Positions 28,593 through 48,533 of a stretch of 64,000 bases of DNA are shown piece by piece. A program made the position numbers and the translations under genes. Source of the stretch: Sinanodonta woodiana (taxonomy: Eukaryota). The stretch is taken from positions 93,766,727 through 93,830,726 of the forward strand of contig CM100994.1 of assembly GCA_046254885.1 (NCBI GenBank), given 5' to 3'. Numbering within the stretch: the stretch's first letter is position 1; each line of letters opens with the position of its first letter. A model generated the notes under the pieces. The model made no database searches. It had not been told where the DNA came from and worked only from the letters and a program-made list of their open reading frames with translations.

Positions 28593-30032
28593 TGTTTGTA
28601 AATTCAGTACCACTAACACTTTCTATTTTGCCCATTTGTAATTTCATTGATGCTGTTTGAGGAAAGGCAATTTTTATAATTAAAAAATATATGCAAGGTA
28701 ACTCTGATTTCTCAAATGTTCATATGAAAATAATATGAAATTCTAAATTGCTTCTATGGGTGATTACTCTATGACAGAATGCAACAGCAGATCATGGTGT
28801 ATGTTGTTTGGTTCACTGATTATGCATTAATCTTATACATGGATAAATATGTTAGAGACTGTAAACCTTGTTGTAAATTGTGAATGGTCTGACTGGTTGA
28901 TTTGCTTGTATTTAGAATTCTGATCCATTCTAGAGGTGGAGGAATGACGGGGGTCTCATTATTATGTATTCTATAATGTATTGCATAAATTATAGTAAAT
29001 ACTTAAATTCTGTTTAATTGTTTTTGAACTTCCTCTACTGTGTAATTTAACTTACCAGTTTGAGGTAGTACTGTAAACTGAGAAACCAGTCATTTCTTTT
29101 TGTTGGTAAATTGGGATGTGCACAACAAGTTCATAATTTTGTCACAATTTCTTGTGGCAGAGCTTGCATGTGTACTGATACTTCTTTGCATGTATATGCA
29201 TAGGGTAAGTGGGAGGTACAAATAACTGAAGAATGTATGAATAGAATGGTGCTTTTGTTGCAGCCATAAATGTTTAACAATACAAAAATATATTTTTTTT
29301 CATAGCATTACAAATCACATGAAATGTCATGATGTACCAGTTTACAGATTTCAAGGTTGTTATAAATTCAAAAAGGCAGAAAAAGTAGTTTTTACCAATG
29401 TGATTTTTGCAGTTAAAATACTTTGCCATAATAAAATGTAGAAGTGCATTCAATAAAATATTTATTGTTAAAAAAAAAAATTGTGTAAAAGTTTAAAAAA
29501 AAATATTTTTGATTATCTTTTGATCATAAAGAATTAGAAAATCATGATTACATTGATTTTTAGGGAATACATGTTTTTCATTCCTAAAACCTTGACGAGA
29601 AACCCTTAACTGATGGTTTTAATTGTATATTGTACTATCTGACTATTCATGAATGGATTTGATGTACAGGGCATGCAGGCTTTTTTCGGAATGATCAGCG
29701 TCCCAAACATATAAACATGTGGATGTAATTTCATTGTCTTTCCTGTCAAGCTTAGGCAGGTTTTTCTTTTACAATGTTGTAGTTGCTGTTTGTTTTTGTT
29801 GCATAGCTGTCAGTAAGTATTATGTGGGCTTTATATTTTCTAAAATCTGCTGGAGCTTGATAACTAACAATATCTGGAAAAATGCTACTCTCCCATCACA
29901 GAGGTAAGTCATATTGACCCTCTATGGTTTTGGATTGGGTTAAGACAAGGGTAACATTAGGTTAGGATGAGGAATTATACATTGAATTGCTGTTTATGCA
30001 AAATTTCACATTGTACACAATTCTTATTACAG

Positions 30033-30155
30033 GAAAGCCTTCATTCTGTGAAAATAAAGGACAACAAAAGATGTGAATGTTCAGTTCAGATTTCTGTTGA
30101 GATGCCCTTTGACATCAGAAAAATCTACTCACCAACTCATCGATTAAAAGTCAAG
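30033..30155 (+). CDS. PARP4: Last VIT-domain exon (ESLHSVKIKDNKRCECSVQISVEMPFDIRKIYSPTHRLKVK).
   Basis: Acceptor ttcttattacag, donor AAG|GTAGAGT. Matches PARP4 ..TVEKICIKEIGTKQSFSLTMSIEMPYVIEFIFSDTHELKQK. The SPTH motif is typical of the VIT C-terminus. Confidence 0.85.
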
Positions 30156-30162
30156 GTAGAGT

Positions 30163-30450
30163 AGCAGCAGAGGGGTCGTATCTGACAGCTTTTTTTGCTT
30201 AAACACGATTAAGGCCTCAAAACGATAAAACGAGCCTTCCTTCAAAATCTCACATTTCGAACCAAAAAAAAATTTAGTCCCCGTTTGTCAAACAGAGCCC
30301 TAGCAGTTAAAGCCGTTGTTTGCCAAAATGAGACCTATAACAGTATTTTTTTTGTTAACATATATCACCGTTGCAACAGGCTCGTGCTTCCGTTTCCATG
30401 GCTAATCAAACTTTTGCCTGAAATTTGTAAAGTTCGACCCCTCTGCTGCT
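30163..30450. repeat. Left TIR (288 bp). The TIR is itself bounded by 16-bp inverted repeats (agcagcagaggggtcg ... cgacccctctgctgct).
   Basis: Read directly in the sequence. The same nested structure appears in the right TIR at 35442-35723. Confidence 0.9.
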
Positions 30451-30463
30451 AAGGGTTACGGTT

Positions 30464-31134
30464 TCAACAAAAAAAATTATCAAGTCCGATACGATATCGT
30501 GTTTGAGGATCATATAAATTAATCGTTACAAATCCATGCGGAGCCGACTGAGCATGACTAAAAAAGTTTTTAAAAACATTAAAATCCATGTTTCCACCGC
30601 ACCAAGTTTGCCAGATATTGCGTAGCGTATGCGTATCAACGCCGTTAAACACAGCAAGGATGTTACAGTTGTCCCTGATTACCTTTGGAATCTGAGTGTA
30701 TCGTTGAGTGACATATCACATCAGTGCTTTTATGCCTTCCTCGCGAAAATATTCTAGCGGGTTTTTTTTGATTGTCTAACATAACGTCATCGTACACAAC
30801 TAATTTGGTAACGCTACCGTCTATATCGTCAATGGATGGTGCGTCATCGATATCTGTAATAAACTCTGACACTGTTTTCGGTGATCTCTGATGCATTATC
30901 GTTAAAATCCTTTAACACCTCGTAGCACCGTTGATCATCTACGCTAGGTGCAACTAAATATAACTTGTTCCATTTCATCCATCTTATTATTAGATTGAGT
31001 AGCAATTGCGTTTTTCCGCTCCCAGATGGTCCGATTATAATCATCCGGATAGAATTTGGTAGCGCTGCAACGTGTTTAACCGGTTCCCTTGTCGTAGTCG
31101 CTGAAAAATCAATTACATTCATATCGCTATACAT
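30464..31134 (-). pseudogene. FtsK/HerA-superfamily, poxvirus-A32-like DNA-packaging ATPase of about 223 aa, disrupted by two frameshifts (near 30850-30895 and near 30705-30715).
   Basis: Three consecutive minus-strand ORFs in different frames carry, in order: Walker A IIIGPSGSGKTQLLLNL; then ..LYLVAPS.., then Walker B KLVVYDDVM.. and SRGRH; then (after a frame change) VTQRYTQIPKVIRDNCNILAVFNGV.., which is the Q..iPk.iR.N.n motif region characteristic of A32/polinton/virophage packaging ATPases. Confidence 0.8.
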
Positions 31135-31139
31135 TAATT

Positions 31140-31430
31140 ATGGATCTATATTGTGTAAAGTGTAAAACGCGTACTAGTACAAACGATATGATGACGGTTA
31201 CCACAAAAAGCAATCGAGCAGCCCTTACTGGTAAGTGTGCAACATGCGGTGTAAAGAAATTTAAATTTATTTCCGCTAAGGGTATTAAAAAAAGCGAGGA
31301 GGTGATATTGCAGCCAAAGTATCAAAACTCTCCGGAATTCGGGTTAACATCTATAACATCAAATACATCAGCTGGTCTTGGTGGTCGATCGACTGCAGCT
31401 TCGTGTTTTGCCTTTACCCTATTATACTGA
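31140..31430 (+). CDS. Small C4 zinc-ribbon protein (CVKC..17 aa..CATCG). The zinc-ribbon core of about 55 aa lies exactly in the gap between two minus-strand ORFs.
   Basis: MDLYCVKCKTRTSTNDMMTVTTKSNRAALTGKCATCGVKKFKFISAKG: CxxC-x17-CxxC with basic residues. The 3' half of the ORF overlaps the convergent 183-aa ORF and may be non-coding. Confidence 0.45.
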   Translation: MDLYCVKCKTRTSTNDMMTVTTKSNRAALTGKCATCGVKKFKFISAKGIKKSEEVILQPKYQNSPEFGLTSITSNTSAGLGGRSTAASCFAFTLLY

Positions 31431-31873
31431 ATATGATTAGCGTTATTAGTAGTATCCTTAGCGAACATCATTGACGGGCCTGCTGACCTTGTATAGTCGT
31501 CAGAATATCTTGCTAGCCCGATTACTGTTGTTGCAACATCGACATCGTTTTCTATAGATTCGATTTCTCGCCCGTCAATGAGATATCTTGCTGAACCAAA
31601 TAACGCCATGATGCCGTTGTTGACAAAACCAACTCGGACATTTGCGTCATCTGCGTATGGATTATTATTTGCTTGAATAAGTTCTCCTTCGATTTCGATA
31701 AACGCTTCACACGGCAAAAAGTATTTACTGGTATCATGGACTTGAAGTTTAATTCGCGATCGTAGGTCAGGTTGTTCTGCATGATAAGAATAATACTGAT
31801 AATCACGGACAGAATCATCCTTGCGCACTGGCGCGTCCATATCGAAGGCCGGATCAGCTGTTCTTTGAAACAT
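31322..31873 (-). CDS. 183-aa ORF in the viral-like element. Function unknown. A structural or capsid-like role is inferred from its position next to the packaging ATPase.
   Basis: Uninterrupted ORF with CpG-rich viral-like composition. No motif I can assign with confidence. Its start overlaps the stop of the upstream 169-aa ORF in another frame, which suggests the two may be fragments of one larger gene. Confidence 0.4.
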   Translation of the reverse strand: MFQRTADPAFDMDAPVRKDDSVRDYQYYSYHAEQPDLRSRIKLQVHDTSKYFLPCEAFIEIEGELIQANNNPYADDANVRVGFVNNGIMALFGSARYLIDGREIESIENDVDVATTVIGLARYSDDYTRSAGPSMMFAKDTTNNANHIQYNRVKAKHEAAVDRPPRPADVFDVIDVNPNSGEF

Positions 31874-31902
31874 ATTATTGTAATTGCGTTGACGTTTTCA
31901 AT

Positions 31903-32412
31903 TCATCGTCGTTTTCGTTGTAAATGTTTCAAATTTCTTTTTAAATTCTCTGACGCTAGACCGCTTCCTGCTATCGCGTTCAACAGCGTATTCGTTGTTG
32001 TATCAGAAGATGGCGAGGCCGCTAGCAACGCAGCCGGAGCCGCCAACGAAGTTAGTTTTTTTTCTACTGCATCGTTTATTACGCTGGCTACACTTTTAGG
32101 CATCACTGTGGTAGAAGGTAACGGCGTTGGTTTTTGTCGCTGCCGTCTCACCAGTGATACTGTTTTGTCTTTTGCTGCAGAAAGTGCCTTGCTGGCAAGG
32201 CTACCAACAGCGCTGATTCCTTTATCACGTAACACATCTATGGCTTTCGTTGATAGTTGTTTAGCTAACGGTGCCACCTTGGGAGCCATTCTTGCAAATA
32301 AACCCGCTATGGTGTCACCGAGACCATTCCCATAAAACGCGCGGTAAACTGGTAATCGTGAGTTTACAACGTAAACGCTGACTGGTTTATCATGGTTGTA
32401 ATGTATGATCAT
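31903..32412 (-). CDS. 169-aa ORF, rich in Ala/Ser/Lys and low-complexity. Possibly a minor virion or membrane-interacting protein, or part of a fragmented larger gene.
   Basis: ORF only. Its composition resembles the A/G/S-rich minor capsid or cement proteins of adeno- and polinton-like viruses. This is inference. Confidence 0.35.
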   Translation of the reverse strand: MIIHYNHDKPVSVYVVNSRLPVYRAFYGNGLGDTIAGLFARMAPKVAPLAKQLSTKAIDVLRDKGISAVGSLASKALSAAKDKTVSLVRRQRQKPTPLPSTTVMPKSVASVINDAVEKKLTSLAAPAALLAASPSSDTTTNTLLNAIAGSGLASENLKRNLKHLQRKRR

Positions 32413-32474
32413 CTTATAACAACTAGCAGTTTTTTAATTATGAAAAACCCCACGAAGATAAATTGACCCACAGT

Positions 32475-32885
32475 TTAGTCGCTGTGATAACCATCCATGA
32501 GTTCGTCTATGGGTTCTCGATATGTGCCAACGTCCATGATACCCCCACGGAATAAACGCGCGCAAATATCTGGTGATTCATTAATTATTTCCGGTAAATT
32601 ATTTCCGGCTCGTATTCCTCCAATAAGAACCTGAAGACGTGATATATCACTGAGAATATTGCCTGGACAAGTAATACTAGCGCTTCCAACTACGCCACTA
32701 CGTAAATATCCGTGTCCTTTTTTAGAGGTGCCAGTTACCCCATCGTCTTTTTGTTTTTGTTTTTGTAGCCACTCGACCCGTCTACTTTTAACGAGATCAC
32801 TAAAAGCTTTGAAATTTTCATCTTTTGGTGGTAGTGTATTTCTGTGTATCCGCGCCAAGTACATCATTCGAATCCATTTATCCAA
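32475..32885 (-). CDS. 136-aa ORF, function unknown.
   Basis: ORF co-oriented with the neighbouring element genes. Confidence 0.35.
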   Translation of the reverse strand: MDKWIRMMYLARIHRNTLPPKDENFKAFSDLVKSRRVEWLQKQKQKDDGVTGTSKKGHGYLRSGVVGSASITCPGNILSDISRLQVLIGGIRAGNNLPEIINESPDICARLFRGGIMDVGTYREPIDELMDGYHSD

Positions 32886-32997
32886 CGCGGATACATTTTC
32901 CTCGTAACCTGGATTTGCATGTATCTCTCGTTGACGCAGGTAAAAATGTTCAACAGTAAAATCAATTACTTGATCCCATTTATCAAAGCCTCTAATT

Positions 32998-33501
32998 TTA
33001 TCTATTGTACTTTTTTTTAAATACTTTACTGGGTATATTTTCTCTGATATCTCTTTGTTGCTGTATTATATCATCTATTTCTTGTTGTGTTTCTTGTTGT
33101 AATAGCTCTTCTTCTGGTTGCATTGCGGTGGCACCTGGCTCCTCTTCATCAGCCATTGTAACATAAGGTTGCTGTTGTTCAGATGTTGATGTTATAGCAA
33201 GTGGCTGCTTCACATCCCCCCGTCGGCGATATGCTGTAGCAACTGCTATTTCCACAGGAAGTGTTTCCAGATACTTTTTTGATTGTTTGGTCTGCGCTGT
33301 TATCTTTTCAAGTTCGCCAAGAATGGGTGTAGTTGCACTGGTTATTGGCTTAAATAACTGTTCACTTCCAACAACAAAATCGTCTTTTTGTTCTTGGCGA
33401 GTCTGCAACTGCTTCCTTAGCCTATCTCGTACAGGAATAAACTGTTTAATAGCAGTCAAACGCTCCCTGGCCGATTTGGTTGTAAGCGATTCATTCACCA
33501 T
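32998..33501 (-). CDS. 167-aa ORF, acidic and Gln-rich with predicted coiled or disordered character. Possibly a scaffold- or phosphoprotein-like product.
   Basis: ORF. An EEEPGATAMQPEEELLQQETQQEIDDIIQQQ acidic stretch. Confidence 0.35.
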   Translation of the reverse strand: MVNESLTTKSARERLTAIKQFIPVRDRLRKQLQTRQEQKDDFVVGSEQLFKPITSATTPILGELEKITAQTKQSKKYLETLPVEIAVATAYRRRGDVKQPLAITSTSEQQQPYVTMADEEEPGATAMQPEEELLQQETQQEIDDIIQQQRDIRENIPSKVFKKKYNR

Positions 33502-33723
33502 GTATTATTACGTTACAGTTTCAAAATGATTTTCAAATTTCCCGCGAGTGTATATAAACACAGACTGGTACTATGTTAAACTGCATGTTAGCGAGTACAG
33601 TAACATTTTTACCAAGGAATGCTAAATAGTTGTCTTATACATATAATTACACGCAGTAACAATTTTACGTATATAAATTGCAAAAAAAATATAAGTTTTG
33701 TTTGTTATTAACAGAATTAATTA

Positions 33724-34026
33724 TTAATTTGATTCCTCGATAATCTTTTTTATGTGCTTGACTTGCTGGTAAATCTCTTTTCGGACCTCGAAAGCATTGC
33801 CAAGTCGTTTCCGTATTGTTTCAACGATAGTGTACAATTCAATAAATACTTTTACGTCTTGGTTATATAAATTTTGATGAATCGCATATTGTAATCGCTT
33901 TTTAAAGGCATATGACCTAGGTAGCGTATTACGACCTTTTTTTGATTGCTGGTCAATAAGTTCATACTGCGATACAATATTTTCGACGTCAAGTTTATCA
34001 TTCAAGACGACCCCTTGATTTTTCAA
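33724..34026 (-). CDS. 100-aa basic ORF, the first gene of the minus-strand block. Function unknown.
   Basis: ORF followed by an AT-rich putative promoter region at 34030-34130. Confidence 0.3.
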   Translation of the reverse strand: MKNQGVVLNDKLDVENIVSQYELIDQQSKKGRNTLPRSYAFKKRLQYAIHQNLYNQDVKVFIELYTIVETIRKRLGNAFEVRKEIYQQVKHIKKIIEESN

Positions 34027-34165
34027 TTTTGAAATTTCATCCGTTATATTTTTTATATCAACACTAATATTTTTATCTTGATCATTTATTATTATATTAA
34101 CAATTTATATCTTTGATTTTAAAAAAAAAACAAAACAAGAAAAACAAGGCAAGACAATGCAGGCA

Positions 34166-34220
<55 letters not shown>

Positions 34221-34222
34221 TT
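34166..34222. repeat. (ATT)19 microsatellite followed by a poly-T run.
   Basis: Read directly in the sequence. Confidence 0.95.
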
Positions 34223-35039
34223 TTTTTTTTTTTTAAAAATGCAAAATAATTGACAGGCTTATTATGAGCGGTTATTCATTATCACGAGTCCCTTATTCAG
34301 GCCTTTGTGTCTCCATAGGGTCTTTTTACAAACACATATTTTACATTTTTCACATATAGACAACACCAAGGTCAGTCAAACCCATTCTGGGTTTGCCCAT
34401 TCCCGGGCATTTCCGACCTTTGCCCTATGATCGTTTCTGTAGGCCGGTAGCCCATTCTGTGCTACCCTATTGGGATCCTCGTGAGAATTTAGAGCTTTCA
34501 TCAATGCCTGTCATTTATTTTTACGTCCACACACTTTGACGCCCAGATAAGTAATCTCCGGCAAGCAACCTATCTCAGCAAACACTGTGATAGGTTACTT
34601 ATAAGGTACATATTTGGGGGTGGGCGGATCCTTCGAAAGCCTACGAACCAATCAAAAGCAACCCAGAAAATTAACCTGGTTGCATTGACAGAAAACAGTC
34701 AACCTTACGACCGAGGTAACGGCGTGGGTTGCTTTTTTTTATTTGCTTTGCAAGCTTTCGAAAGCTCCAAAAGCTTAACGACTCATATTCTATATAAGCT
34801 GAATGATGCAGCGATATCAAGGAAAAGGTTGTGCTAATTTGAATCGCTTTGAACCATTAAATCGCTAAGAACTTATTAATAGCGTTCAACAGCACTTAAA
34901 TAAAACCAAATATTTGAAACAAATAATAAACAAAAGAATACAGCGTTGCGATAACAGCATAAATTTCATTAGTTTTTATTTTAAAAAAATGAATTAATCA
35001 AAACATTAATTGGACTTCAAGGGGAGATCACTCTAAGTG

Positions 35040-35432
35040 ACTTTTATGGAGTTACCTCCCCTTAAAAAATTATCTTCCCTTGAATTTTTTTATCTCCCCT
35101 TGAAATTTTTTTTATCTCCCCTTGAAAAAAATATCTCTCCTTTAAAAAAATTTCTCCCCTTTAAATTTTTTTTTTATCTCCCCTTGAAATTTTGTATCTC
35201 CCTTTGAATTTTTTTATCTCCCCTTGAAAAACAGAGTTATCTCCTCTTAAAAAAGTTATCTCCCCTTAAAAAAATTACCTCCCTTGAAAAAATAATTACC
35301 TCCCTTTGAAAAAAATTATCTCCCCTTAAAAAAGTTATCTCCCCTTAAAAAAGTTATCTCCCTTAAAAAAAGTTATCTCCCCTTAAAAAAATACCTCCCC
35401 TTAAATTTTTTTTATCTCCCCTTGAAAAAAAA
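35040..35432. repeat. Tandem repeat of about 19-21 bp (ttatctccccttgaaaaaa), about 19 copies, inside the element and abutting the right TIR.
   Basis: Read directly in the sequence. Confidence 0.9.
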
Positions 35433-35441
35433 AATTAACAC

Positions 35442-35723
35442 AGCAGCAGAGGGGTCGAACCCTACAAATTTCAGGCAAAAGTTTGATTAGCTGTGGAAAC
35501 GGAAGCGCGAGCCTGTTGCAACGGTGATATATTTTAACAAAAAAATACTGTTATAGGTCTCATTTTGGCAAACAACGGCTTTAACTGCTAAAGCTCTGTT
35601 TGACAAACGGGGACTAAATTTTTTTGTTTGTTTGAAATGTGAGATTTTGAAGGAAGGCTCGTTTTATCGTTTTGAGGCCTTAATCGTGTTTAAGCAAAAA
35701 AAGTTGTCCAATACTCTGCTGCT
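35442..35723. repeat. Right TIR (282 bp) of the viral-like element. It is also bounded by the 16-bp inverted repeats agcagcagaggggtcg ... cgac(c/t)c.. / ..ctctgctgct.
   Basis: It is the reverse complement of 30163-30450. Confidence 0.9.
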
Positions 35724-36715
35724 AGAGTAAAACAGAAATAAGTAAATTACATTTTTCTGAAATATTTCAAGGTAGATTTTGTCAGCATTTAGAAAATAAC
35801 GCATTGTTTCTGTGAACATAGAAAAAGGAAAGCAAATAATGGCATTTGAGGTATACAGGAATAGTCAGTGTTTGTCCTTGTGTTTTTGGATCACCTGGCC
35901 TTACAGTCAAGTGAGCTTTTAATGTCGTCCTCTATTTGTATGCCATTCATCAACATTTGTTTTGTTATCTCTCTGGAGACTGATTGCTATCCAGTTTTGA
36001 TCAGGTAGGAATATGGGCTTATATCATCCAGAGTTTTAAAGAGAAAGATAATGACCAGGATTGTGTGTATCCTTGGCATGACTGCACTCAAGAGATTGTA
36101 TTTCTGATCTGATTTTGTATTAGGTTGGTAGGTAGGCTTAAATCATCAATATTTCAAATGAATACTGTTGTGAGTGAGCTCCATGCAGTATGTTAATGAG
36201 ATGATATTTTGTCTAATTGACTAAAATTGTCAGTATGTTTGTAACTCAATTTCTTATCAGATATTTATCAAACATGTTTAAGCTGTCCATGAATTTATTA
36301 TGAGCAAAATCTGTACATATTAATAAAGTGTCCTTGCATCAGATTTGTTGAGCTTCTTATCAGTCAGAACCTGATTGTGATCAAACCTGATTGTGATCAA
36401 ATCCAATTTGACTTTGTACGTTTTCTAAAATCATCAAGAATATAGTTATGAGCTGTTTATCAAACTTGATAAATTGGCTTATGTCATTAAGATCTTGATT
36501 TATTTGTTCTGTGTGAGATTCACACATCACTGGTGTCATCGAACTGACTGAGTTAGTCAGCATTCTAGCAAATATACTTCTGATGAGATTTTAATCAAAT
36601 TAGCTTATATTTTCAAGATGTTGGATGAGTTTGTTTAGGAGTAAATTCTGAATATTTACAAGTTAATACACTTTGATCTGTATCAATAAAGTATTTATTC
36701 CATCTTATTGTCTGA

Positions 36716-37150
36716 ATTAGCTGAGCTGTTATCTCTCTCAAGAAACTGTCATCTAGCTTGTTATCTCTCTCAAGATACTGTCATCTGGTTATCTCTCTTT
36801 TGTGACTCATCTAGCTTGTTATCTCTCAAGAGACTATCATCTAGCTTGTTATCTCTTTCAAGATACTGTCATATGGTTATCTCTCATTAGTGACTCATCT
36901 AGCTTGTTATTTCTGTCAAGAGACTGTCATCTAGCTTATTATCTCTCTAGAGACTGTCATCTGGCTTATCTCTCTCTAGTGACTGTCATCTAGCTTGTTA
37001 TCTCTCAAGAGACTGCCATCTATCTTAATATCACTATCAATGGACTCATTTATCTTGTTATCTCTCTCTGGAGACTGTCATCTAGCATTATATATCTCTC
37101 TTGCAACTGTAATCTTGCTTTCTTGTCTTTCTCTAGAGACTCATCTAGTT
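36716..37150. repeat. Minisatellite of about 30 bp (ctgtcatctagcttgttatctctcaagaga), about 14 copies.
   Basis: Read directly in the sequence. Confidence 0.85.
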
Positions 37151-37581
37151 TCAGTAAAACATGTAAAGATGTTTAAATAATTAGGATCTTCAATAGCTTG
37201 TTATGACCGAGAGACAGTATATGCTAATTGTGTTTGTCAGGAAGTTAAAAAAATTCAGATAGTATTTAAAAATAGACAAATCTATTATATAAACTATTTA
37301 AAATTTGGATGCCATATAATTTCAGATATCATGGTTATTATAAAATTAGTATTGTTGTTGCAAACAATGTGATTATTAATAAATGATATTACTTCTTTTA
37401 TCTACAGTAAAATCATTAATCTTGTCTTAAATTTCTGTCAGAATAGATGCAGGTATATTTTAGTTATTAAATGAGAGCACTCACACCAGTAAATATGTTA
37501 ATGATAATGTATAGAAAGTAAGTGATTTAAAAAGGCACTGAGTACAATTATTAAGATATCAAATTATTAATTCCTTGTCAG

Positions 37582-37716
37582 AAAACAGATACAAAGGCAG
37601 TTGTAGAAATACCAAAGAACTCCAGGCTGGATGAGGGATTTGAACTTCAGGTTTCACTTGCAGAAATCCATGTGCCAAGAATGTGGGTGGAAAAGCATAC
37701 AGAAAAAGATTCACAG
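37582..37716 (+). CDS. PARP4: Exon between VIT and vWA (KTDTKAVVEIPKNSRLDEGFELQVSLAEIHVPRMWVEKHTEKDSQ).
   Basis: Acceptor ttccttgtcag, donor CAG|GTACAT. Matches PARP4 ..LPRMWVEKHPEKESE. Confidence 0.9.
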
Positions 37717-37899
37717 GTACATACATACCACACGGGCTATAATGCAATTTATGATACCCTGAAGCATTTTGTGATTGGGATTGCTTGCTTTATTTTAATT
37801 TCAGATATATAAGATATTTAAAAAAAAGCATTGATCTCAGAATGAGATTCATGTTTATAGCTTATGATGAACTGTGCTATTCTGGGATACCTTATACCG

Positions 37900-38085
37900 A
37901 GGGGTCACTGTAGAAATATTGACATTTTATCTTACAATCAAGCACATAATTGACCAATCAGTGTGAGACCCACTCTGGCTAACAATCAAGCTCATAATTG
38001 ACCAATCAGTGTGAGACCCAGTCTGGCTAACAATAAGGCACATAATTGATCAATCAGTATGAGACCAATTCTGGCTAATAATCAG
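37900..38085. repeat. Tandem repeat of about 54 bp, 3 copies (aatcaagc.cataattgaccaatcagtgtgagaccc..tctggctaaca).
   Basis: Read directly in the sequence. Confidence 0.85.
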
Positions 38086-38089
38086 ACAA

Positions 38090-40950
38090 GTAGGTCTGTA
38101 GTTTGTAATAGCTGGTCTCTGCCTAAATTGTGGAAACAGTTTGCAATAGCTAGTCTCTGCCTAAGCTGTGGAGACAGTTTGTAATAACTGGTCTCTGCCT
38201 AAACTGTGGAGAGTTTGCAATAGCTGTTCTCTGCTTAAACTGTGGAGAGTTTGCAATAGCTGGTCTCTGCATAAACTGTGGAGAGTTTGTAATAACTGGT
38301 CTCTGCCTAAGATGTGGAGAGTTTGCAATAGCTGGTCTCTGCCTAAACTGTGGAGAGTTTGCAATAGCTGGTATCTGCCTAAACTGTGGAGAGTTTGCAA
38401 TTGCTGGTCGCTGCATAAACTGTGGAGACAGTTTGTAATAACTGGAACTGTGGAGACAGTTTGTAATAACTGGTCTCTGCCTAAACTGTGGAGAGTTTGC
38501 AATAGCTGGTGTCTGCCTAAGTTGTGGAGAGTTTGCAATAGCTGGTCTCTGCCTAAACTGTGGAGACAGTTTGTAACAACTGGTCTCTGCCTAAACTGTG
38601 GAGAGTTTGCAATAGCTGGTCTCTGCATAAACTGTGGAGACATTTTGTAATAGCTGGTCTCTGCCTAAACTGTGGAGAGTTTGCAATAGCTGGTCTCTGC
38701 CTAAGTTGTGGAGACAGTTTGTAATAACTGGTCTCTGCCTAAACTGTGGAGACAGTTTGTAATGACTGGTCTCTGCCTAAACTGTGGAGAGTTTGCAATA
38801 GCTAGTCTCTAAGTTGTGGAGAGTTTGCAATAGCTGGTCTCTGCCTAAACTGTGGAGACAGTTTGTAATAACTGGTCTCTGCCTAAACTGTGGAGACAGT
38901 TTGTAATAACTGGTCTCTGCCTAAACTGTGGAGACAGTTTGTAATAGCTGGTCTCTGCCTAAGTTGTGGAGACAGTTTGTAATAGCTTGTCTCTGCCTAA
39001 ACTGTAGAGACAGTTTGTAATAGCTGGTCTCTGCCTAAACTGTGGAGACAGTTTGCAATAGCTGGTCTCTGCCTGAGTTGTGGAGACAGTTTGTAATAAC
39101 TGGTCTCTGCCTAAATTGTGGAGACAGTTTTTAATAGCTTGTCTCTGCCTAAATTGTGGAAACAGTTTGCAATAGCTAGTCTCTGCTTAAACTGTGGAGA
39201 CAGTTTGTAATAACTGGTCTCTGCCTAAGCTGTGGAGAGTTTGCAATAGCTGGTCTCTGCCTAAACTGTGGAGAGTTTGCAATAGCTGGTATCTGCCAAA
39301 GTTGTGGAGAGAGTTTATAATAACTAGTCTCTGCCTAAACTGTGGAGAGTTTGCAATAGCTGGTCTCTGCATAAACTGTGGAGACAGTTTGTAATAACTG
39401 GTCTCTGCATAAGCTGTGGAGACAGTTTGCAATAGCTGGTCTCTGCATAAACTGTGGAGACAGTTTGTAATAACTGGTGTCTGCCTAAACTGTGGAGAGT
39501 TTGCAATAGCTGGTGTCTGCCTAAGTTGTGGAGAGTTTGCAATAGCTGGTCTCTGCCTAAACTGTGGAGACAGTTTGTAATAACTGGTCTCTGCCTAAAC
39601 TGTGGAGAGTTTGCAATAGCTAGTCTCTGCCTAAGTTGTGGAGAGTTTGCAATAGCTGGTCTCTGCATAAACTGTGGAGACAGTTTGTAATAGCTTATCT
39701 CTGCCTAAATTGTGGAGAGAGTTTGTAATAACTGTTCTCTGCCTAAACTGTGGAGACAGTTTGTAATAACTGGTCTCTGCCTAAACTGTGGAGACAGTTT
39801 GTAATAACTGGTCTCTGCCTAAACTGTGGAGACAGTTTGTTATAACTGGTCTCTGCATTAACTGTGGAGACAGTTTGTAATAGCTGGTCTCTGCCTAAAC
39901 TGTGGAGACAGTTTGTAATAACTGGTCTCTGCATAAACTGTGGAGACAGTTTGTAATAACTGGTCTCTGCCTAAACTGTAGAGACATTTTGTAATAGTTG
40001 GTCTCTGCCTAAACTGTGGAGACAGTTTGCAAGAGCTAGTCTCTGCCTAAACTGTGGAAACAGTTTGTAATAGCTGGTCTCTGCCTAAACTGTGGAGACA
40101 GTTTGTAATAGCTAGTCTCTGCCTGAGTTGTGGAGACAGTTTGTAATAGCTGGTCTCTGCCTAAGTTGTGGAGACAGTTTGTAATAACTGGTCTCTGCCT
40201 AAACTGTGGAGACAGTTTGTAATAGCTAGTCTCTGCCTAAGTTGTGGAGACAGTTTGTAATAACTGGTCTCTGCCTAAACTGTGGAGACAGTTTGTAATA
40301 GTTAGTCTCTGCCTAAGTTGTGGAGACAGTTTGTAATAGCTAGTCTCTGCCTAAGCTGTGGAGACAGTTTGTAATAGTTAGTCTCTGCCTAAGTTGTGGA
40401 GACAGTTTGTAATAGCTGGTCTCTGCCTAAACTGTAGAGACAGTTTGTAATAGCTGGTCTCTGCCTAAACTGTGGAGACAGTTTTTAATAGCTGGTCTCT
40501 GCCTAAACTGTGGAGACAGTTTGTAATAGCTGGTGTCTGCCTAAACTGTGGAGACAGTTTGTAATAGCTAGTCTCTGCCTGAGTTGTGGAGACAGTTTGT
40601 AATAACTGGTCTCTGCCTAAACTGTGGAGACAGTTTGTAATAGTTAGTCTCTGCCTAAGTTGTGGAGACAGTTTGTAATAGCTAGTCTCTGCCTAAGCTG
40701 TGGAGACAGTTTGTAATAGTTAGTCTCTGCCTAAGTTGTGGAGACAGTTTGTAATAGCTGGTCTCTGCCTAAACTGTAGAGACAGTTTGTAATAGCTGGT
40801 CTCTGCCTAAACTGTGGAGACAGTTTTTAATAGCTGGTCTCTGCCTAAACTGTGGAGACAGTTTGTAATAGCTGGTCTCTGCCTAAACTGTGGAGACAGT
40901 TTTTAATAGCTAGTCTCTGCCTAAGTTGTAGAGACAGTTTGTAATAGCTG
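38090..40950. repeat. 2.9-kb satellite with a 38-41-bp unit (ctgtggagacagtttgtaatagctggtctctgcctaaa), about 70 copies.
   Basis: Read directly in the sequence. The overlapping 160-aa ORFs on both strands are artifacts. Confidence 0.95.
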
Positions 40951-41327
40951 TGTCAATATGTTGCTGTAGCTGGTTTCAGTCTCAACTTTGACTCATTTTG
41001 GCAACAGCTAGTCTCTGTCTGTAAACTGTTGACACATTGGTTTCTATTTAAGCTGTTGACACATTTTGTTAACAATTAGTCTCAATATGTTGACACATTT
41101 TTCAATAACTGGTCTCGCAATATGTAAGCTGTTGACACATTTTGAAATTTCTACTCTTTATTTAAGCTGACTGCATTTTGATAGGCCTCTTGTGGAATAA
41201 ATACATCAATAATTTAAATGCAATATGTCATGAAATGATGTTTTTTGCTCCCCCTCCCTTGACTGACAAGTTTATATTACACAAATGCAATTACTTTGTT
41301 CTATTGTTGATTTTTCTACTTTTTTAG

Positions 41328-41447
41328 GCCTGCATGTTGACCTTCTATCCCGAGTTTGAGAGTGAGAAGGAAGAGTCAACTGAAATTCTTTTCCTAATTG
41401 ACATGTCAAACTCTATGAAAGGTGATGCTGAAAGAGATGCTAAAAAG
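41328..41447 (+). CDS. PARP4: vWA-domain first exon (ACMLTFYPEFESEKEESTEILFLIDMSNSMKGDAERDAKK).
   Basis: Acceptor cttttttag, donor AAG|GTCAGC (weak). The DxSxS MIDAS motif (LIDMSNSM) is present. Matches PARP4 ACMLVFQPD..ICLDCSSSMEG. Confidence 0.85.
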
Positions 41448-41854
41448 GTCAGCCTAATACATTCATCTTTACCATGGTGTTTTGAAATTTAATAATAGTT
41501 ACAACAAAACAATCAAGAACTTTTATGCTTCAATGTAAATAAACTTTTTCACAAAAAAAATCCTGTTAAATGTACCTGTAGTTTGACTTAAATTACTGAA
41601 ATTAATGTAGAGCATTTTGGAATTGAAATGTTTTTGTTAATGAAATTAAACAAAACCTTGAAACACCTTGATCAACAAATCAACTTAAAATCGATGTATC
41701 TTGATCTTATTAACAGATAACATTCTGGCATCAATCTCCTATTTTCACTAATGATACTGATTGTCTATCAATTATAGTAATGTATTATCTGAATATTAGA
41801 TAGAACTTCAAAAGAATTTAAAAAGTATTTTTTTTACTAACACTAGACGTTATT

Positions 41855-42060
41855 CGTGGAAAGAATCATGATAATAACCCTAGTAACAAGATGGAAAGAA
41901 TCATGGTAATAACCCTAGTAACAAGATGGAAAGAATCATGGTAATAACCCTAGTAACAAGATGGAAAGAATCATGATAATAACCCTAGTAACAAGATGGA
42001 AAGAATCATGGTAATAACCCTAGTAACAAGATGGAAAGAATCATGGTAATAACCCTAGTA
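41855..42060. repeat. 39-bp tandem repeat, 5 copies (agaatcatggtaataaccctagtaacaagatggaa), followed by a 2-copy 57-bp duplication at about 42075-42190.
   Basis: Read directly in the sequence. Confidence 0.85.
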
Positions 42061-42381
42061 ACAAGACCTGTTGCAAAACCAAACCTTGTCTGTCTCCTAT
42101 TTCCCTTACAGTGTCTTTAAGATCCCTCCCCCCAAAACCTTGTCTGTCTCCTATTTCCCTTACAGTGTCTTCAAGATCCCCCCCCCCCAAACAATGTGCA
42201 GATGATTGCATAGTTTTATTACAATTGTTTCTTTCTGTATAACTTCCTTTTGTCACTTTATTGCATAATATTATGTCCAGTTGAAAGTATATGCCATAAT
42301 CAACATATACCAATGCCTTTCTCTGCCAGATGAAAATTGTAGTTGAATCTCATCATTAAAGAAATGTATTTTTCATTAAAG

Positions 42382-42522
42382 GTGCTTGATCTTGCATTGC
42401 ATCAGCTTCCAGCAACCTATTACTTCAACATTACTGTATTTGGCACATCAAGCTCAGACTTGTTTTCGGCATCACAGAAAATATCCAAGTCAACACTGGA
42501 GAGAGCGCAGGAACATGTCAAA
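42382..42522 (+). CDS. PARP4: vWA-domain exon (VLDLALHQLPATYYFNITVFGTSSSDLFSASQKISKSTLERAQEHVK).
   Basis: Acceptor cattaaag, donor AAA|GTAAAA. Matches PARP4 ..IALHALSL..VNIIQFGTGYKELF.. Confidence 0.8.
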
Positions 42523-43289
42523 GTAAAAATTGTTACATAACATCACATATCTCATACATTTTAACTGTTCTTATGAAATTTTCTTAAATAGACTTTAAAA
42601 GTTGTGAGGTTTTTCTTTGCAAAGGTTCATAACATGTAAAATTAATTCAGCTTATTTCATATAGAACAAAATTAAGTTTGATGTAGAAAGAATTGTTTGT
42701 TTGATGTAGAAATAGTTCAGCTTGTTTCATATGGATACAGTTCAGTTTGTTTTGTATAATAACAGTTTACCGGTAGTTTGTTTCATATAAAAATATGGAT
42801 ATTGAATTCAAATGGAGTTTTTTTTTTATATATAAAGAATTCAGTTCGTTTTTTGTATTAGAAAAATCAGTTTGTTTTGTATACAAAGAAAACTGTTTTG
42901 TATTACAAAAAGTCAGTTTGTTTTGTATAGAAGGAATTAGCATATTTGTAAAAATCATACTATATTACTCAGAATTTACAGAGTAAAAAAGAACTCAAAA
43001 GTCAAAATAGAATGTTATACATCATAGTCTTCCACTTGGCATCAGTACTGTTAGCCAAGACCAATTCTATTGTATTATCACCTTTTGAAATTGGCATCCC
43101 TTACTTTCAGGGATTTAAATTAAAAAAGTATTGATGAGGAGTATTACAAATATCTTGATAAACATTGTAAAGATATTGCTGAATATAAAAAAAGTATTGA
43201 TGAACACAAAACTTTTGATAAAGATTAAAAAAGTCATGAACTTTAAAGAAGTCTTGAAAAATATAAAAAGAAATTGAAAAAGTTTTTGT

Positions 43290-45545
43290 CAAGATTGAAA
43301 TTAAGTATTGATGAACATAAACTTGGTCTAGTTGAATACAGAAAATCTTGTGATGAACATAAACATGGTCTAGTTGAATACAGAAAATCTTGTGATGAAC
43401 ATAAACTTGCTCTAGTTGAATACAGAAAATCTTGTGATGAACATAAACTTGGTCTAGTTGAATACAGAAAATCTTGTGATGAACATAAACTTGCTCTAGT
43501 TGAATACAGAAAATCTTGTGATGAACATAAACTTGCTCTAGTTGAATACAGAAAATCTTGTGATGAACATAATAAACTTGCTCTAGTTGAATACAGAAAA
43601 TCTTGTGATGAACATAAACTTGCTCTAGTTGAATACAGAAAATCTTGTGATGAACATAATAAACTTGCTCTAGTTGAATACAGAAAATCTTGTGATGAAC
43701 ATAAACTTGGTCTAGTTGAATACAGAAAATCTTGTGATGAACATAAACTTGGTCTAGTTGAATACAGAAAATCTTGTGATGAACATAAACTTGCTCTAGT
43801 TGAATACAGAAAATCTTGTGATGAACATAAACTTGCTCTAGTTGAATACAGAAAATCTTGTGATGAACATAAACTTGGTCTAGTTGAATACAGAAAATCT
43901 TGTGATGAACATAATAAACTTGCTCTAGTTGAATACAGAAAATCTTGTGATGAACATAATAAACTTGCTCTAGTTGAATACAGAAAATCTTGTGATGAAC
44001 ATAAACTTGGTCTAGTTGAATACAGAAAATCTTGTGATGAACATAAACTTGGTCTAGTTGAATACAGAAAATCTTGTGATGAACATAAACTTGCTCTAGT
44101 TGAATACAGAAAATCTTGTGATGAACATAAACTTGCACTAGTTGAATACAGAAAATCTTGTGATGAACATAATAAACTTGGTCTAGTTGAATACAGAAAA
44201 TCTTGTGATGAACATAAACTTGGTCTAGTTGAATACAGAAAATCTTGTGATGAACATAAACTTGCTCTAGTTGAATACAGAAAATCTTGTGATGAACATA
44301 AACTTGCTCTAGTTGAATACAGAAAATCTTGTGATGAACATAAACTTGCTCTAGTTGAATACAGAAAATCTTGTGATGAACATAATAAACTTGCTCTAGT
44401 TGAATACAGAAAATCTTGTGATGAACATAAACTTGCTCTAGTTGAATACAGAAAATCTTGTGATGAACATAATAAACTTGCTCTAGTTGAATACAGAAAA
44501 TCTTGTGATGAACATAAACTTGGTCTAGTTGAATACAGAAAATCTTGTGATGAACATAAACTTGGTCTAGTTGAATACAGAAAATCTTGTGATGAACATA
44601 AACTTGCTCTAGTTGAATACAGAAAATCTTGTGATGAACATAAACTTGCTCTAGTTGAATACAGAAAATCTTGTGATGAACATAATAAACTTGCTCTAGT
44701 TGAATACAGAAAATCTTGTGATGAACATAAACTTGCTCTAGTTGAATACAGAAAATCTTGTGATGAACATAATAAACTTGCTCTAGTTGAATACAGAAAA
44801 TCTTGTGATGAACATAAACTTGGTCTAGTTGAATACAGAAAATCTTGTGATGAACATAATAAACTTGCTCTAGTTGAATATAGAAAATCTTGTGATGAAC
44901 ATAAACTTGCTCTAGTTGAATACAGAAAATCTTGTGATGAACATAATAAACTTGCTCTAGTTGAATACAGAAAATCTTGTGATGAACATAAACTTGCTCT
45001 AGTTGAATACAGAAAATCTTGTGATGAACATAAACTTGGTCTAGTTGAATACAGAAAATCTTGTGATGAACATAAACTTGCTCTAGTTGAATACAGAAAA
45101 TCTTGTGATGAACATAAACTTGCTCTAGTTGAATACAGAAAATCTTGTGATGAACATAATAAACTTGCTCTAGTTGAATACAGAAAATCTTGTGATGAAC
45201 ATAAACTTGGTCTAGTTGAATACAGAAAATCTTGTGATGAACATAAACTTGGTCTAGTTGAATACAGAAAATCTTGTGATGAACATAAACTTGCTCTAGT
45301 TGAATACAGAAAATCTTGTGATGAACATAAACTTGCTCTAGTTGAATACAGAAAATCTTGTGATGAACATAATAAACTTGCTCTAGTTGAATACAGAAAA
45401 TCTTGTGATGAACATAAACTTGCTCTAGTTGAATACAGAAAATCTTGTGATGAACATAAACTTGGTCTAGTTGAATACAGAAAATCTTGTGATGAACATA
45501 AACTTGCTCTAGTTGAATACAGAAAATCTTGTGATGAACATAAAG
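43290..45545. repeat. 2.3-kb satellite with 60/63-bp units (tcttgtgatgaacataaacttg(c/g)tctagttgaatacagaaaa, with an optional +aat), about 37 copies. It is flanked by degenerate related repeats at 43100-43290 and 45545-45960.
   Basis: Read directly in the sequence. The 898-aa and 760-aa ORFs across it are repeat artifacts (perfectly periodic translations). Confidence 0.95.
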
Positions 45546-48470: not shown

Positions 48471-48533
48471 TTTAATTTCATTGAAATTATCTCATATATT
48501 TTGTACAGTTGTAAATCTTTTTATTGCTTACAG

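What the first reader, a model, noticed from the sequence alone, without database searches (positions are those of the whole stretch)
30163..30450. Each 285-bp TIR is itself a palindromically bounded unit: nested inverted repeats (agcagcagaggggtcg ... cgacccctctgctgct)
The left TIR begins with agcagcagaggggtcg and ends with cgacccctctgctgct. The right TIR (35442-35723) has the same structure. So the element reads [16-bp IR - 256 bp - 16-bp IR'] - cargo - [16-bp IR - 256 bp - 16-bp IR']. Two explanations fit. One is a cargo flanked by two inverted copies of a 288-bp MITE, mobilised as a composite. The other is TIRs whose ends can form terminal hairpins or cruciform structures, as in linear-genome replication origins. 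Either would be mechanistically interesting for how this viral gene block became mobile.
Basis: seen in the sequence. Interest (0 to 1): 0.7.

Follow-up and report, generated by a model that had tools for sequence, protein, structure and literature searches.

The report
Palindrome-bounded end repeats of a Polinton
A decayed virus-like transposon (Polinton/Maverick type) in what looks like a freshwater-mussel genome has ~285-bp end repeats that each start with the element's 16-base terminal signal and finish with an inverted copy of it, and its relatives share this layout, so each end repeat looks like a complete miniature element.

Summary
The left repeat (30163-30450) is bounded by an exact inverted 16-mer. 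The right repeat (35442-35723) keeps the inner 16-mer but has a 6-bp deletion in the outer one. The whole 5.56-kb element is flanked by a 5-bp duplication (AGAGT); the single repeats are not. The cargo is a degraded, internally deleted Polinton/Maverick (adintovirus-like) gene set: a frameshifted A32-type packaging ATPase, a truncated DUF5679/PLA2 gene and the N-terminus of a double-jelly-roll capsid protein. Relatives occur in unionid mussels and in metagenome contigs. In five relatives the ATPase is followed by a 150-301-bp module that starts exactly at AGCAGCAG+G-box. In four of these the module visibly ends ...CTGCTGCT next to unrelated flanks; a sixth contig shows only the inner motif. 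The inner motif is therefore conserved, even where the module interior is non-homologous. More distant relatives that carry a protein-primed polymerase (ends AGTAGT...) lack the inner copy. A recent capture of viral genes by two MITEs is not supported, because the layout is ancestral to this lineage. Hairpin potential is limited to the 16-bp closing stem. Best reading: each end repeat is a discrete two-ended mini-element. Whether such modules move on their own could not be tested. This is a new variant of a known kind, of moderate interest.

The parts
30158..30162 (.). Left copy of the 5-bp target-site duplication AGAGT
   Evidence: Read directly. Identical 5-mer at 35724-35728. The position of the terminus is fixed by relatives, which all end ...CTGCTGCT followed by A, G, C or T.
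30163..30450 (.). Left terminal inverted repeat = one 288-bp module
   Evidence: 92.7% identical to the reverse complement of 35442-35723. Its outer half is homologous (about 75%) to the end modules of L010, L013 and L016.
30163..30178 (+). Outer terminal motif AGCAGCAGAGGGGTCG (the true end of the element)
   Evidence: The same terminus, AGCAGCAG + G-rich box, is found in L011, L013, L014 and L016.
30435..30450 (-). Inner, inverted copy of the terminal motif, 13 bp from the ATPase stop codon
   Evidence: Exact 16-mer on the minus strand. Conserved in 8 of 8 aligned inner ends; the core AGCAGCA and four of the six following positions are invariant, with a sharp boundary at the first A.
30464..31134 (-). 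Packaging ATPase pseudogene (Pox_A32 / FtsK-HerA type), two frameshifts
   Evidence: Pfam PF04665 E=3e-5 on the N-terminal ORF. Three-frame reading. The frameshift-corrected protein is 89% identical to P0001, and 51 homologues were found.
31140..31430 (+). Truncated DUF5679 zinc-ribbon gene; relatives have DUF5679-PLA2 (PLA2X-like) here. Homology to relatives stops at about 31337 (deletion junction).
   Evidence: PF18930 E=1.6e-12. BLAST to L010, L011 and L012 ends at 31337. Relatives carry DUF5679+Phospholip_A2_4.
31322..31873 (-). N-terminal 183-aa fragment of a double-jelly-roll major capsid protein
   Evidence: Homologues at 54-79% identity, several carrying PF21738 (DJR-like). Named hosts are Sinanodonta woodiana and Potamilus streckersoni.
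31903..34026 (-). Four further ORFs (169, 136, 167 and 100 aa) of unknown function, presumably virion or accessory genes
   Evidence: ORF list. No Pfam family above threshold. Not followed further.
35045..35440 (.). Array of about 20 copies of a 19-20-bp unit (TTATCTCCCCTTAAAAAAG) abutting the right TIR
   Evidence: No counterpart at the left end.
35442..35723 (.). Right terminal inverted repeat = second, inverted copy of the module (282 bp)
35442..35457 (+). Inner copy of the terminal motif in the right TIR
   Evidence: Exact 16-mer. Its first 48 nt are 'outer-type': 85% identical to the outer end of L013.
35714..35723 (-). Remnant (10 nt, AGCAGCAGAG) of the outer terminal motif; 6 bp deleted
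   Evidence: Global alignment of left TIR against the reverse complement of the right TIR.
35724..35728 (.). Right copy of the 5-bp target-site duplication AGAGT
   Evidence: Read directly.

Best explanation
The 5.56-kb element (30163-35723) is an old, internally deleted and pseudogenised Polinton/Maverick-type (adintovirus-like) endogenous virus. In its lineage each terminal inverted repeat is exactly one discrete 150-300-bp module. The module is delimited by two inverted copies of the element's terminal recognition sequence (AGCAGCAG, a G-rich box, then a looser ~30-50-nt extension). The element is therefore 'module - genes - inverted module', formally like an IS-bounded composite transposon, but the layout is ancestral to the lineage and was not made at this locus.

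Shown: the two outer copies were the working ends of the integration that produced this copy (5-bp TSD around the whole element and none around single modules). The inner copies keep every feature of a true end, up to the last nucleotide.

Inferred: the terminal sequence is the cis site used by the lineage's rve integrase. Given its AGC-AGC-AG reiteration, it may also serve a protein-primed polymerase, with both enzymes supplied in trans for this dead copy. Outer plus outer ends move the whole element. The outer plus inner end of one module would define a 288-bp mini-element that can be replicated or integrated alone and can replace the end of a virus genome. This explains why module interiors turn over while both bounding motifs persist. 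The partly palindromic interior suggests that the module began as a left TIR fused to a right TIR, that is, a total internal-deletion derivative.
For: Anatomy:
- Exact inverted 16-mer at the borders of the left TIR, and the inner 16-mer in the right TIR; no other copy in 64 kb and 0 expected.
- TIR homology ends exactly at the inner motif.
- TSD only around the whole element.

Identity:
- A32 ATPase, DUF5679 and DJR capsid fragment.
- Close relatives carry an rve integrase and DUF5679-PLA2 next to the orthologous ATPase.
- Relatives with 59% identical integrase are complete Polintons with pPolB (PF03175), 249-330-bp TIRs starting AGTAGT, and a 6-bp TSD in L024.

Family conservation:
- L010, L011, L013, L014 and L016 have a module starting exactly at AGCAGCAG (AGCAGCAT in L013). 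In L011, L013, L014 and L016 it ends ...CTGCTGCT followed by unrelated flanks. L020 shows the inner motif before the contig ends.
- The distance from the ATPase stop to the inner motif varies from 7 to 402 bp, so the motif is not a gene-end signal.

Module behaviour:
- The interiors of L011 and L014 are unrelated to the others. On the ATPase NJ tree L011 falls among the sequences closest to W rather than in the well-supported L014/L020/L021 group (bootstrap 96), and its ATPase is 87% identical to that of L013; its exact placement has low bootstrap support.
- L011 also keeps a second, degenerate inner motif 16 bp further in, as expected if a new module was added to an older end.

Renewal of the inner end:
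- The window's inner 48 nt are 81-85% identical to the OUTER end of L013, but only 54-62% to the orthologous inner ends.
- The two arms of one module match each other better than arms of other elements (4 of 120 permutations).

Palindromic origin:
- With 20 nt masked at each end, the units of W, L016 and L013 still align to their own reverse complement (z = 4.3, 4.4, 2.7; 0-5 of 300 shuffles).

Published ranges for Polintons (TIR 100-1500 bp, TSD 5-8 bp) are quoted from 10.1101/2023.08.22.554363.
Against: - No solo module was seen. There is none in the 64-kb window, and the host genome could not be searched, so independent mobility of the module is a prediction, not an observation.
- Only one member, this window, shows both ends, so 'TIR = exactly one module' is established for one element.
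- The inner ends of L010, L011, L014, L016 and L020 share their own signature (..GAYGACAACA..; 69-75% to each other). This points to vertical inheritance and selection inside the virus lineage, which would equally fit a role in virus replication or in assembly of an end complex.
- The arm-matching statistic rests on 5 elements. An ungapped version of the test was not significant (16 of 120).
- This copy has neither integrase nor pPolB, and pPolB was seen only in more distant relatives.
Confidence: 0.4

Rival explanations
1. Mini-panhandle. The inner copy exists to pair with the terminal 14-17 nt of the same strand. In a protein-primed linear genome, the displaced single strand would fold so that its 3' end is base-paired with the nearby inner copy. 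This would rebuild a duplex origin at each end without having to find the other end. Heteroduplex repair in that stem would keep the two arms alike.
For: - The terminus carries a trinucleotide reiteration (AGCAGCAG; AGTAGT in the pPolB-bearing relatives), like the adenovirus 3'-GTAGTA used for jumping-back (PMC5175343).
- Panhandles formed by ITR pairing are the standard, though unproven, model for displaced strands (PMC11886824).
- All five complete units fold with the two motifs as the closing stem and beat shuffles (z -3.75, -6.3, -4.8, -7.4, -3.8).
- One clear compensatory change is seen at stem position 9 (A:T in W, G:C in L013).
- The arms evolve in concert (4 of 120).
- The sharp boundary of the inner copy at the last terminal nucleotide is what pairing with a free end predicts.
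Against: - A 14-17-bp stem closing a 120-270-nt loop is weak compared with the 288-bp inter-TIR panhandle that is available anyway.
- The interior is not consistently structured (body-only z -0.22 for W, -1.4 to -1.6 for L010, L011 and L013; host-flank controls range from +1.7 to -3.3).
- pPolB-bearing relatives L022 and L024 have no inverted terminal copy within 900 bp, so protein-primed Polintons do not need it.
- pPolB has not been shown in this sub-lineage.
Confidence: 0.25
2. Accessory binding site. The inner copy is a second binding site for the end-recognition protein (integrase), used to build an ordered nucleoprotein complex on each long TIR, as in the IR/DR repeats of Sleeping Beauty-type transposons. 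It is never cut.
For: - The geometry is similar: long TIR of 150-300 bp with one site at the outer border and one at the inner border.
- IR/DR elements use the inner site to enforce synapsis before cleavage (PMC5224488).
- Extra copies of the inner motif occur in L011 and L013, as in binding-site arrays.
- A conserved 'inner-type' signature is shared across both ATPase clades.
Against: - The sites are inverted here, not direct as in IR/DR.
- The best-conserved part of the inner copy is the extreme terminal AGCAGCAG, which a non-cleaved accessory site would not need. From my own knowledge, not checked in the papers read here, the inner DRs of SB lack the terminal nucleotides.
- The spacing between the two sites is not conserved (about 120 to 270 bp).
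Confidence: 0.15
3. Literal reading 1 of the first reader. At or shortly before this insertion, two copies of an independent 288-bp MITE came to flank a fragment of viral genes and mobilised it as a new composite.
For: The architecture is formally that of a composite. The TSD surrounds the composite. The window's module has two 'outer-type' ends, as a free MITE would.
Against: - The same module in the same position relative to the ATPase gene is found in relatives that differ by 16-26% in the ATPase, with homologous module interiors in L010, L013 and L016.
- The cargo is explained by one large internal deletion (junction near 31322-31337) in an ordinary Polinton gene order.
- No unit-level TSDs are present.
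Confidence: 0.05
4. Relic without function. The module is the decaying remnant of an old palindrome (a TIR-TIR fusion), and the inner motif has simply not decayed yet.
For: The interior palindrome is degenerate. Inner ends are less conserved than outer ends beyond the first 14 nt (inner-inner 4-8 of 12 against outer-outer 6-11 of 12 matching positions).
Against: In all 8 aligned inner ends the core AGCAGCA and four of the six following positions are invariant, while the sequence on either side is unalignable (mean column identity 45%). The motif pair survives complete replacement of the interior in L011 and L014. The inner end was renewed from an outer-type sequence in the window lineage.
Confidence: 0.1

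Closest known systems
Polinton/Maverick elements (adintovirus-like endogenous viruses), non-autonomous deletion derivatives
   Same: Long TIRs (288/282 bp), a 5-bp TSD, and 5'-AG...CT-3' ends with a short reiteration. Genes include an A32/FtsK packaging ATPase, a DJR capsid gene and a PLA2X-like gene, with an rve integrase in close relatives and pPolB in more distant ones (ranges; PLA2X in alpha adintoviruses from PMC8502044).
   Different: The TIR ends in an inverted copy of its own terminus. The pPolB-bearing relatives examined (L022, L024) do not have this, and the papers read do not describe it. This copy has lost the integrase and polymerase genes.
IS-bounded composite transposons (Tn5/Tn10 type: two inverted IS copies, each with an outside and an inside end)
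   Same: The formal architecture is the same: [end-x-end'] cargo [end-x'-end']. The outer ends move the whole element, and the inner ends are complete ends (own knowledge of Tn5/Tn10; anatomy).
   Different: The flanking modules are non-coding, 150-300 bp, and belong to a eukaryotic virus-like element that uses a retroviral-type integrase. The arrangement is inherited by a whole lineage rather than assembled locally. Independent movement of the module has not been shown.
IR/DR terminal repeats of Sleeping Beauty-type Tc1 elements
   Same: An inverted repeat of about 200-250 bp with one recognition site at its outer border and one at its inner border. In those elements the inner site governs ordered assembly (PMC5224488).
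   Different: There the two sites are direct repeats within each IR, the enzyme is a Tc1/mariner transposase, and the TSD is TA. Here the sites are inverted and include the extreme terminal nucleotides.
Retroviral / LTR-retrotransposon LTRs, each bounded by short inverted repeats (TG...CA)
   Same: A long terminal repeat whose two borders are inverted copies of the integrase recognition end. The integrase is rve-type and the TSD is short (own knowledge).
   Different: LTRs are direct repeats made by reverse transcription, which explains why both att ends occur in each LTR. Here the long repeats are inverted, so no such by-product explanation applies.
Adenovirus-type ITRs with terminal reiteration (jumping-back) and panhandle intermediates
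   Same: Trinucleotide reiteration at the very end (AGCAGCAG against CATCAT). ITR pairing in displaced strands is the accepted model (PMC5175343; PMC11886824).
   Different: Adenovirus ITRs carry no inverted copy of the terminus at their inner border. Protein priming is not demonstrated for this sub-lineage.
Parvovirus/AAV hairpin ITRs
   Same: An ITR that is itself bounded by complementary arms (A...A'), and a parvovirus-like PLA2 domain in the family.
   Different: AAV ITRs are almost fully self-complementary. Here only 16-31 nt pair well, and the window unit's interior folds no better than shuffles. No Rep/NS1-type gene was seen.

Membership tests
Polinton/Maverick (adintovirus-like) element | Terminal inverted repeats of about 100-1500 bp | tested here: met
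   288 and 282 bp, 92.7% identical. Range.
Polinton/Maverick (adintovirus-like) element | Target-site duplication of 5-8 bp | tested here: met
   AGAGT at 30158-30162 and 35724-35728. The relative L024 has a 6-bp TACATG.
Polinton/Maverick (adintovirus-like) element | Virion module: double-jelly-roll capsid protein and FtsK/A32 packaging ATPase | tested here: met
   PF04665 on the ATPase. Capsid-fragment homologues carry PF21738. Both genes are damaged in this copy.
Polinton/Maverick (adintovirus-like) element | Retrovirus-like (rve) integrase | tested here: inconclusive
   Absent from the 5-kb cargo: no Pfam hit on any ORF. Present beside the orthologous ATPase in L014 (PF00665, E=1.4e-8) and fused to DUF5679-PLA2 in L017.
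Polinton/Maverick (adintovirus-like) element | [quoted passage not shown] | tested here: inconclusive
   Absent from this copy. Found (PF03175, 1214-1258 aa) in L022-L024, whose integrase is 59% identical to that of L014. No contig of the close sub-lineage was long enough to show its replication gene.
MITE / composite transposon built from two MITEs | Flanking modules each bounded by their own terminal inverted repeats | tested here: met
   16-bp exact match, 31 nt at 81%. Found in the relatives as well.
MITE / composite transposon built from two MITEs | Each module inserted on its own (module-level TSDs at this locus) | tested here: not met
   AGAGT|unit|AAGGG and AACAC|unit|AGAGT.
MITE / composite transposon built from two MITEs | Solo copies of the module dispersed in the host genome with their own TSDs | not testable with these tools
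   None in the 64-kb window. The host genome is not searchable.
Hairpin (parvovirus/AAV-type) terminal repeats | Repeat largely self-complementary, folding into a stable terminal hairpin | tested here: not met
   Only the 16-bp closing stem is strong. The whole unit gives z -3.75, but the interior alone gives z -0.22. The interior palindrome is detectable only as a degenerate alignment.
IR/DR-type terminal repeats (Sleeping Beauty group) | Two recognition sites per repeat in direct orientation, Tc1/mariner transposase, TA duplication | tested here: not met
   The sites are inverted, the TSD is 5 bp, and the family enzyme is an rve integrase.

The most novel reading that the evidence does not exclude
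In this mussel Polinton lineage every end repeat is a self-sufficient 150-300-bp mini-replicon/mini-transposon with two functional ends. It can (i) fold so that the inner copy rebuilds a duplex origin for the protein-primed polymerase, (ii) spread alone as a Polinton-derived MITE, and (iii) heal or replace damaged virus ends. This would be a modular 'telomere cassette' system for an integrating DNA virus, something not described for Polintons, adintoviruses or adenoviruses.
Probability: 0.2. Interest if true: 0.7.

Novelty: new variant of a known kind. Interest (0 to 1): 0.45.

Why it matters
How Polintons/Mavericks recognise, replicate and repair their ends is essentially unknown, and models rest on analogy with adenovirus and retroviruses. 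This lineage preserves a second, inverted copy of the exact terminus at the inner border of each end repeat, through complete turnover of the sequence in between. That defines the cis-acting end signal to the nucleotide (AGCAGCAG + G-box) and gives concrete substrates for integrase and polymerase assays. It also predicts a class of Polinton-derived MITEs in bivalve genomes and a route by which virus ends could be exchanged. If solo modules are absent, the inner copy must instead serve the virus itself, which would be a new feature of protein-primed or integrase-dependent genome ends.

Tried and rejected
- The 16-mer scan of IMG/VR gave 9 single hits with no flanking similarity, so they are chance matches.
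- Searches for ATPase relatives in IMG/VR, with one protein and with a 14-sequence alignment, found none.
- Degenerate terminal-motif and motif-pair patterns in IMG/VR and GTDB genomes gave 0 hits. The motif-pair pattern would not have matched the window's own variant, which has 1 mismatch.
- The Sinanodonta woodiana proteins P0042 and P0046 could not be traced to DNA, so no host chromosome was available.
- Rfam found nothing in 29500-36500.
- An ungapped permutation test for arm matching was not significant (16 of 120). The edit-distance version gave 4 of 120, which I treat as suggestive only.
- Covariation in the module interior could not be assessed, because MAFFT could not align the inner halves. 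Only the closing stem is interpretable.
- The idea of an AAV-like structured ITR was dropped after the body-only folds.
- The idea that the motif is an ATPase gene-end signal was dropped, because its distance from the stop codon varies from 7 to 402 bp.
- A 7-bp TSD (TAGAGTA, with ends GCAGCAG...CTGCTGC) was considered and rejected, because the relatives conserve the terminal T/A next to variable flanks.
- A literature search for the WGS prefix JACCEC returned only unrelated papers.
- The original Polinton paper (PMC1450207) is not held.

Full report
OBSERVATION

The left repeat (30163-30450, 288 bp) starts with AGCAGCAGAGGGGTCG and ends with its exact reverse complement. With up to two mismatches allowed, the 16-mer occurs three times in the 64-kb window, at 30163(+), 30435(-) and 35442(+). 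None was found in 100 dinucleotide-preserving shuffles. The inverted match extends to 31 nt at 81%.

The right repeat (35442-35723, 282 bp) is 92.7% identical to the reverse complement of the left one. It keeps the inner 16-mer. Its outer end has lost 6 bp, leaving only AGCAGCAGAG (35714-35723). The statement that the right TIR 'has the same structure' is therefore only partly true.

The homology between the two repeats stops to the nucleotide at the end of the inner motif. A 5-bp direct repeat, AGAGT, flanks the whole element (30158-30162 and 35724-35728). The single units have no duplications of their own. A 7-bp reading of the duplication was rejected, because relatives conserve the terminal ...CTGCTGCT next to variable flanks.

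WHAT THE ELEMENT IS

The cargo carries several recognisable genes.
- On the minus strand there is a packaging ATPase of the Pox_A32/FtsK type, broken by two frameshifts (30464-31134).
- On the plus strand there is a truncated DUF5679 zinc-ribbon gene (31140-31430).
- On the minus strand there is the N-terminal 183 aa of a double-jelly-roll capsid protein. Its homologues carry PF21738 and include proteins of the unionid mussels Sinanodonta woodiana and Potamilus streckersoni.
- Four further unassigned ORFs follow.

The frameshift-corrected ATPase has 51 homologues, up to 89% identical, on short metagenome contigs and in S. woodiana.

Close relatives place DUF5679-PLA2 and an rve integrase next to the orthologous ATPase (L014; fused into one protein in L017). 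Elements whose integrase is 59% identical (L022-L024) are complete Polintons. They have a 1214-1258-aa protein-primed polymerase (PF03175), a DJR capsid gene, an ATPase and 249-330-bp TIRs beginning AGTAGT, and L024 has a 6-bp TSD.

Homology of the window to its relatives stops at about 31337, inside the DUF5679 gene and next to the end of the capsid fragment. One large internal deletion therefore explains the small cargo. The element is a dead, internally deleted Polinton/Maverick (adintovirus-like) copy. Its TIRs and TSD fit the published ranges. The PLA2-type gene fits alpha adintoviruses.

THE NESTED MOTIF IN THE FAMILY

Downstream of the ATPase, five relatives carry a module whose sequence begins exactly at AGCAGCAG plus a G-rich box.
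- L011: 1238-1538, 301 bp, perfect 17-bp inverted ends.
- L013: 2669-2920.
- L014: 2398-2547, 150 bp.
- L016: 1156-1403.
- L010: starts at 1244; a poly-C run obscures its outer end.

In the four relatives with a readable outer end, the module ends ...CTGCTGCT and is followed by mutually unrelated flanks. L020 shows the inner motif before the contig ends.

In the 8-sequence alignment, the core AGCAGCA and four of the six following positions of the inner copy are invariant, while mean column identity is 45%. Conservation starts sharply at the first A. The distance from the ATPase stop to the inner motif varies from 7 to 402 bp, so the motif is not a gene-end signal.

The more distant pPolB-bearing relatives L022 and L024 have no inverted copy of their terminus within 900 bp. 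The feature is specific to this sub-lineage.

MODULE BEHAVIOUR

The outer halves of the modules of the window, L010, L013 and L016 are about 75% identical, similar to the ATPase genes.

The interiors of L011 and L014 are unrelated to these. On the ATPase tree L011 groups with the sequences closest to the window (87% identity to L013) rather than with the well-supported L014/L020/L021 clade. The internal branches of that group have low bootstrap support. L011 also retains a second, degenerate inner motif 16 bp further in. Interiors are thus replaced while the bounding motif pair is kept.

With 20 nt masked at each end, the modules of the window, L016 and L013 still align to their own reverse complement better than shuffles (z 4.3, 4.4, 2.7). 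They are degenerate palindromes, as expected for an old fusion of a left and a right TIR.

The window's inner 48 nt are 81-85% identical to the outer end of L013, but only 54-62% identical to the orthologous inner ends. Those inner ends share their own signature. In the window lineage the inner end was therefore overwritten by an outer-type sequence. Arms of the same module match each other better than arms of other elements (4 of 120 permutations; an ungapped version gave 16 of 120). With five elements this is suggestive only.

HAIRPIN POTENTIAL

All five complete modules fold with the two motifs as the closing stem and beat shuffles (z -3.75, -6.3, -4.8, -7.4, -3.8).

Without the terminal 20 nt on each side, the result is different. 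The window's module folds no better than shuffles (z -0.22). L010, L011 and L013 are unremarkable (-1.4 to -1.6). Only L014 and L016 stand out (-2.95, -4.83). Host-flank control windows range from +1.7 to -3.3. One compensatory change is visible in the closing stem. An AAV-like structured ITR is not supported. A 14-17-bp terminal stem is all that is consistently present.

INTERPRETATION

Shown:
- The element is a deleted Polinton-type copy.
- Its TIR equals one discrete module bounded by inverted copies of the exact terminus.
- The pair of outer ends was used for integration.
- The inner copy is conserved in the lineage through turnover of the interior.

Inferred:
- The terminal sequence is the cis site for the rve integrase.
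- Because of its AGC-AGC-AG reiteration it may also serve a protein-primed polymerase. The reiteration is analogous to the adenovirus 3'-GTAGTA used for jumping-back (PMC5175343) and to AGTAGT in the pPolB-bearing relatives.

My best reading (0.4) is that each TIR is a two-ended mini-element. The layout is formally that of an IS-bounded composite transposon, but it is ancestral to the lineage. The module should then be able to move or replicate alone and to replace virus ends.

The main rival (0.25) is that the inner copy pairs with the terminus in displaced single strands, forming a local panhandle that rebuilds a duplex origin (model background: PMC11886824). A third possibility (0.15) is an uncut accessory integrase-binding site, analogous to IR/DR repeats (PMC5224488). 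However, the sites here are inverted and include the extreme terminal nucleotides. A recent MITE capture at this locus (0.05) and a functionless relic (0.1) are unlikely, for the reasons given above.

LIMITS

- No host genome could be searched, so the existence of solo modules, which is the key discriminating test, is open.
- Only this window shows both ends of a family member.
- The replication gene of the close sub-lineage was not seen.
- Scans of IMG/VR and GTDB were empty, and Rfam found nothing.
- In the papers read I found no description of Polinton TIRs bounded by inverted terminal copies. This is absence in a limited library, not proof of novelty.

VERDICT

The feature is real and conserved in the lineage. 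The element itself is an ordinary decayed Polinton. The end-repeat architecture is a new variant of a known kind, with a testable mechanistic implication. Interest is moderate (0.45).

Noticed in passing
window 35045-35440: About 20 tandem copies of a 19-20-bp unit (TTATCTCCCCTTAAAAAAG) end 1 bp before the inner motif of the right TIR. Nothing comparable lies at the left end, where the ATPase gene abuts the TIR.
   Followed up: partly
L016:1-450 and L019:3-455: Two close relatives carry an HNH_3 + NUMOD1 (homing-endonuclease-like) gene immediately upstream of the ATPase, where other relatives have the divergent DUF5679-PLA2 gene. L019 also lacks the terminal motif within 209 bp after the ATPase.
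   Followed up: no
L017:435-1916: A more distant relative encodes one 493-aa protein that joins a DUF5679 zinc ribbon, a parvovirus-like PLA2 domain and an rve integrase core. In L014 the PLA2 and integrase are separate adjacent genes.
   Followed up: no
window 36700-49500: A run of minisatellites: 38 bp x76 at 38100-40950, 42 bp x52 at 43309-45544, 51 bp x22 at 47324-48472, and 30-88-bp units at 36727-37101. They explain the long ORFs found on both strands there, including the 898-aa and 760-aa ORFs.
   Followed up: partly
L010:1476-1500: A run of about 22 C residues sits where the outer terminus ...CCCTCTGCTGCT is expected. It is either an expansion of the C-rich part of the motif or an assembly artefact.
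   Followed up: no
proteins P0111, P0113, P0114, P0120: Integrases of this Polinton family are deposited as 'DDE-type integrase' of Candidatus Thiodiazotropha MAGs (clam symbionts). These are most likely host (bivalve) contigs mis-binned into bacterial genomes. The family has 3978 hits at E <= 0.001.
   Followed up: no
L022:1956-2277/15128-15458; L023:~490-1065/14784-15154; L024:1253-1501/15199-15447: Three complete pPolB-bearing Polintons from one ENA assembly share an identical integrase, and L022 and L024 share AGTAGT termini. L024 has a clean 6-bp TSD (TACATG) and L022 shows none. The TIR of L023 is expanded by tandem repeats of about 77 bp.
   Followed up: partly
window 34100-34250: An (ATT)18 microsatellite at 34167-34220 lies inside an A/T-rich stretch with several imperfect inverted repeats, within the non-coding right part of the cargo.
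   Followed up: no
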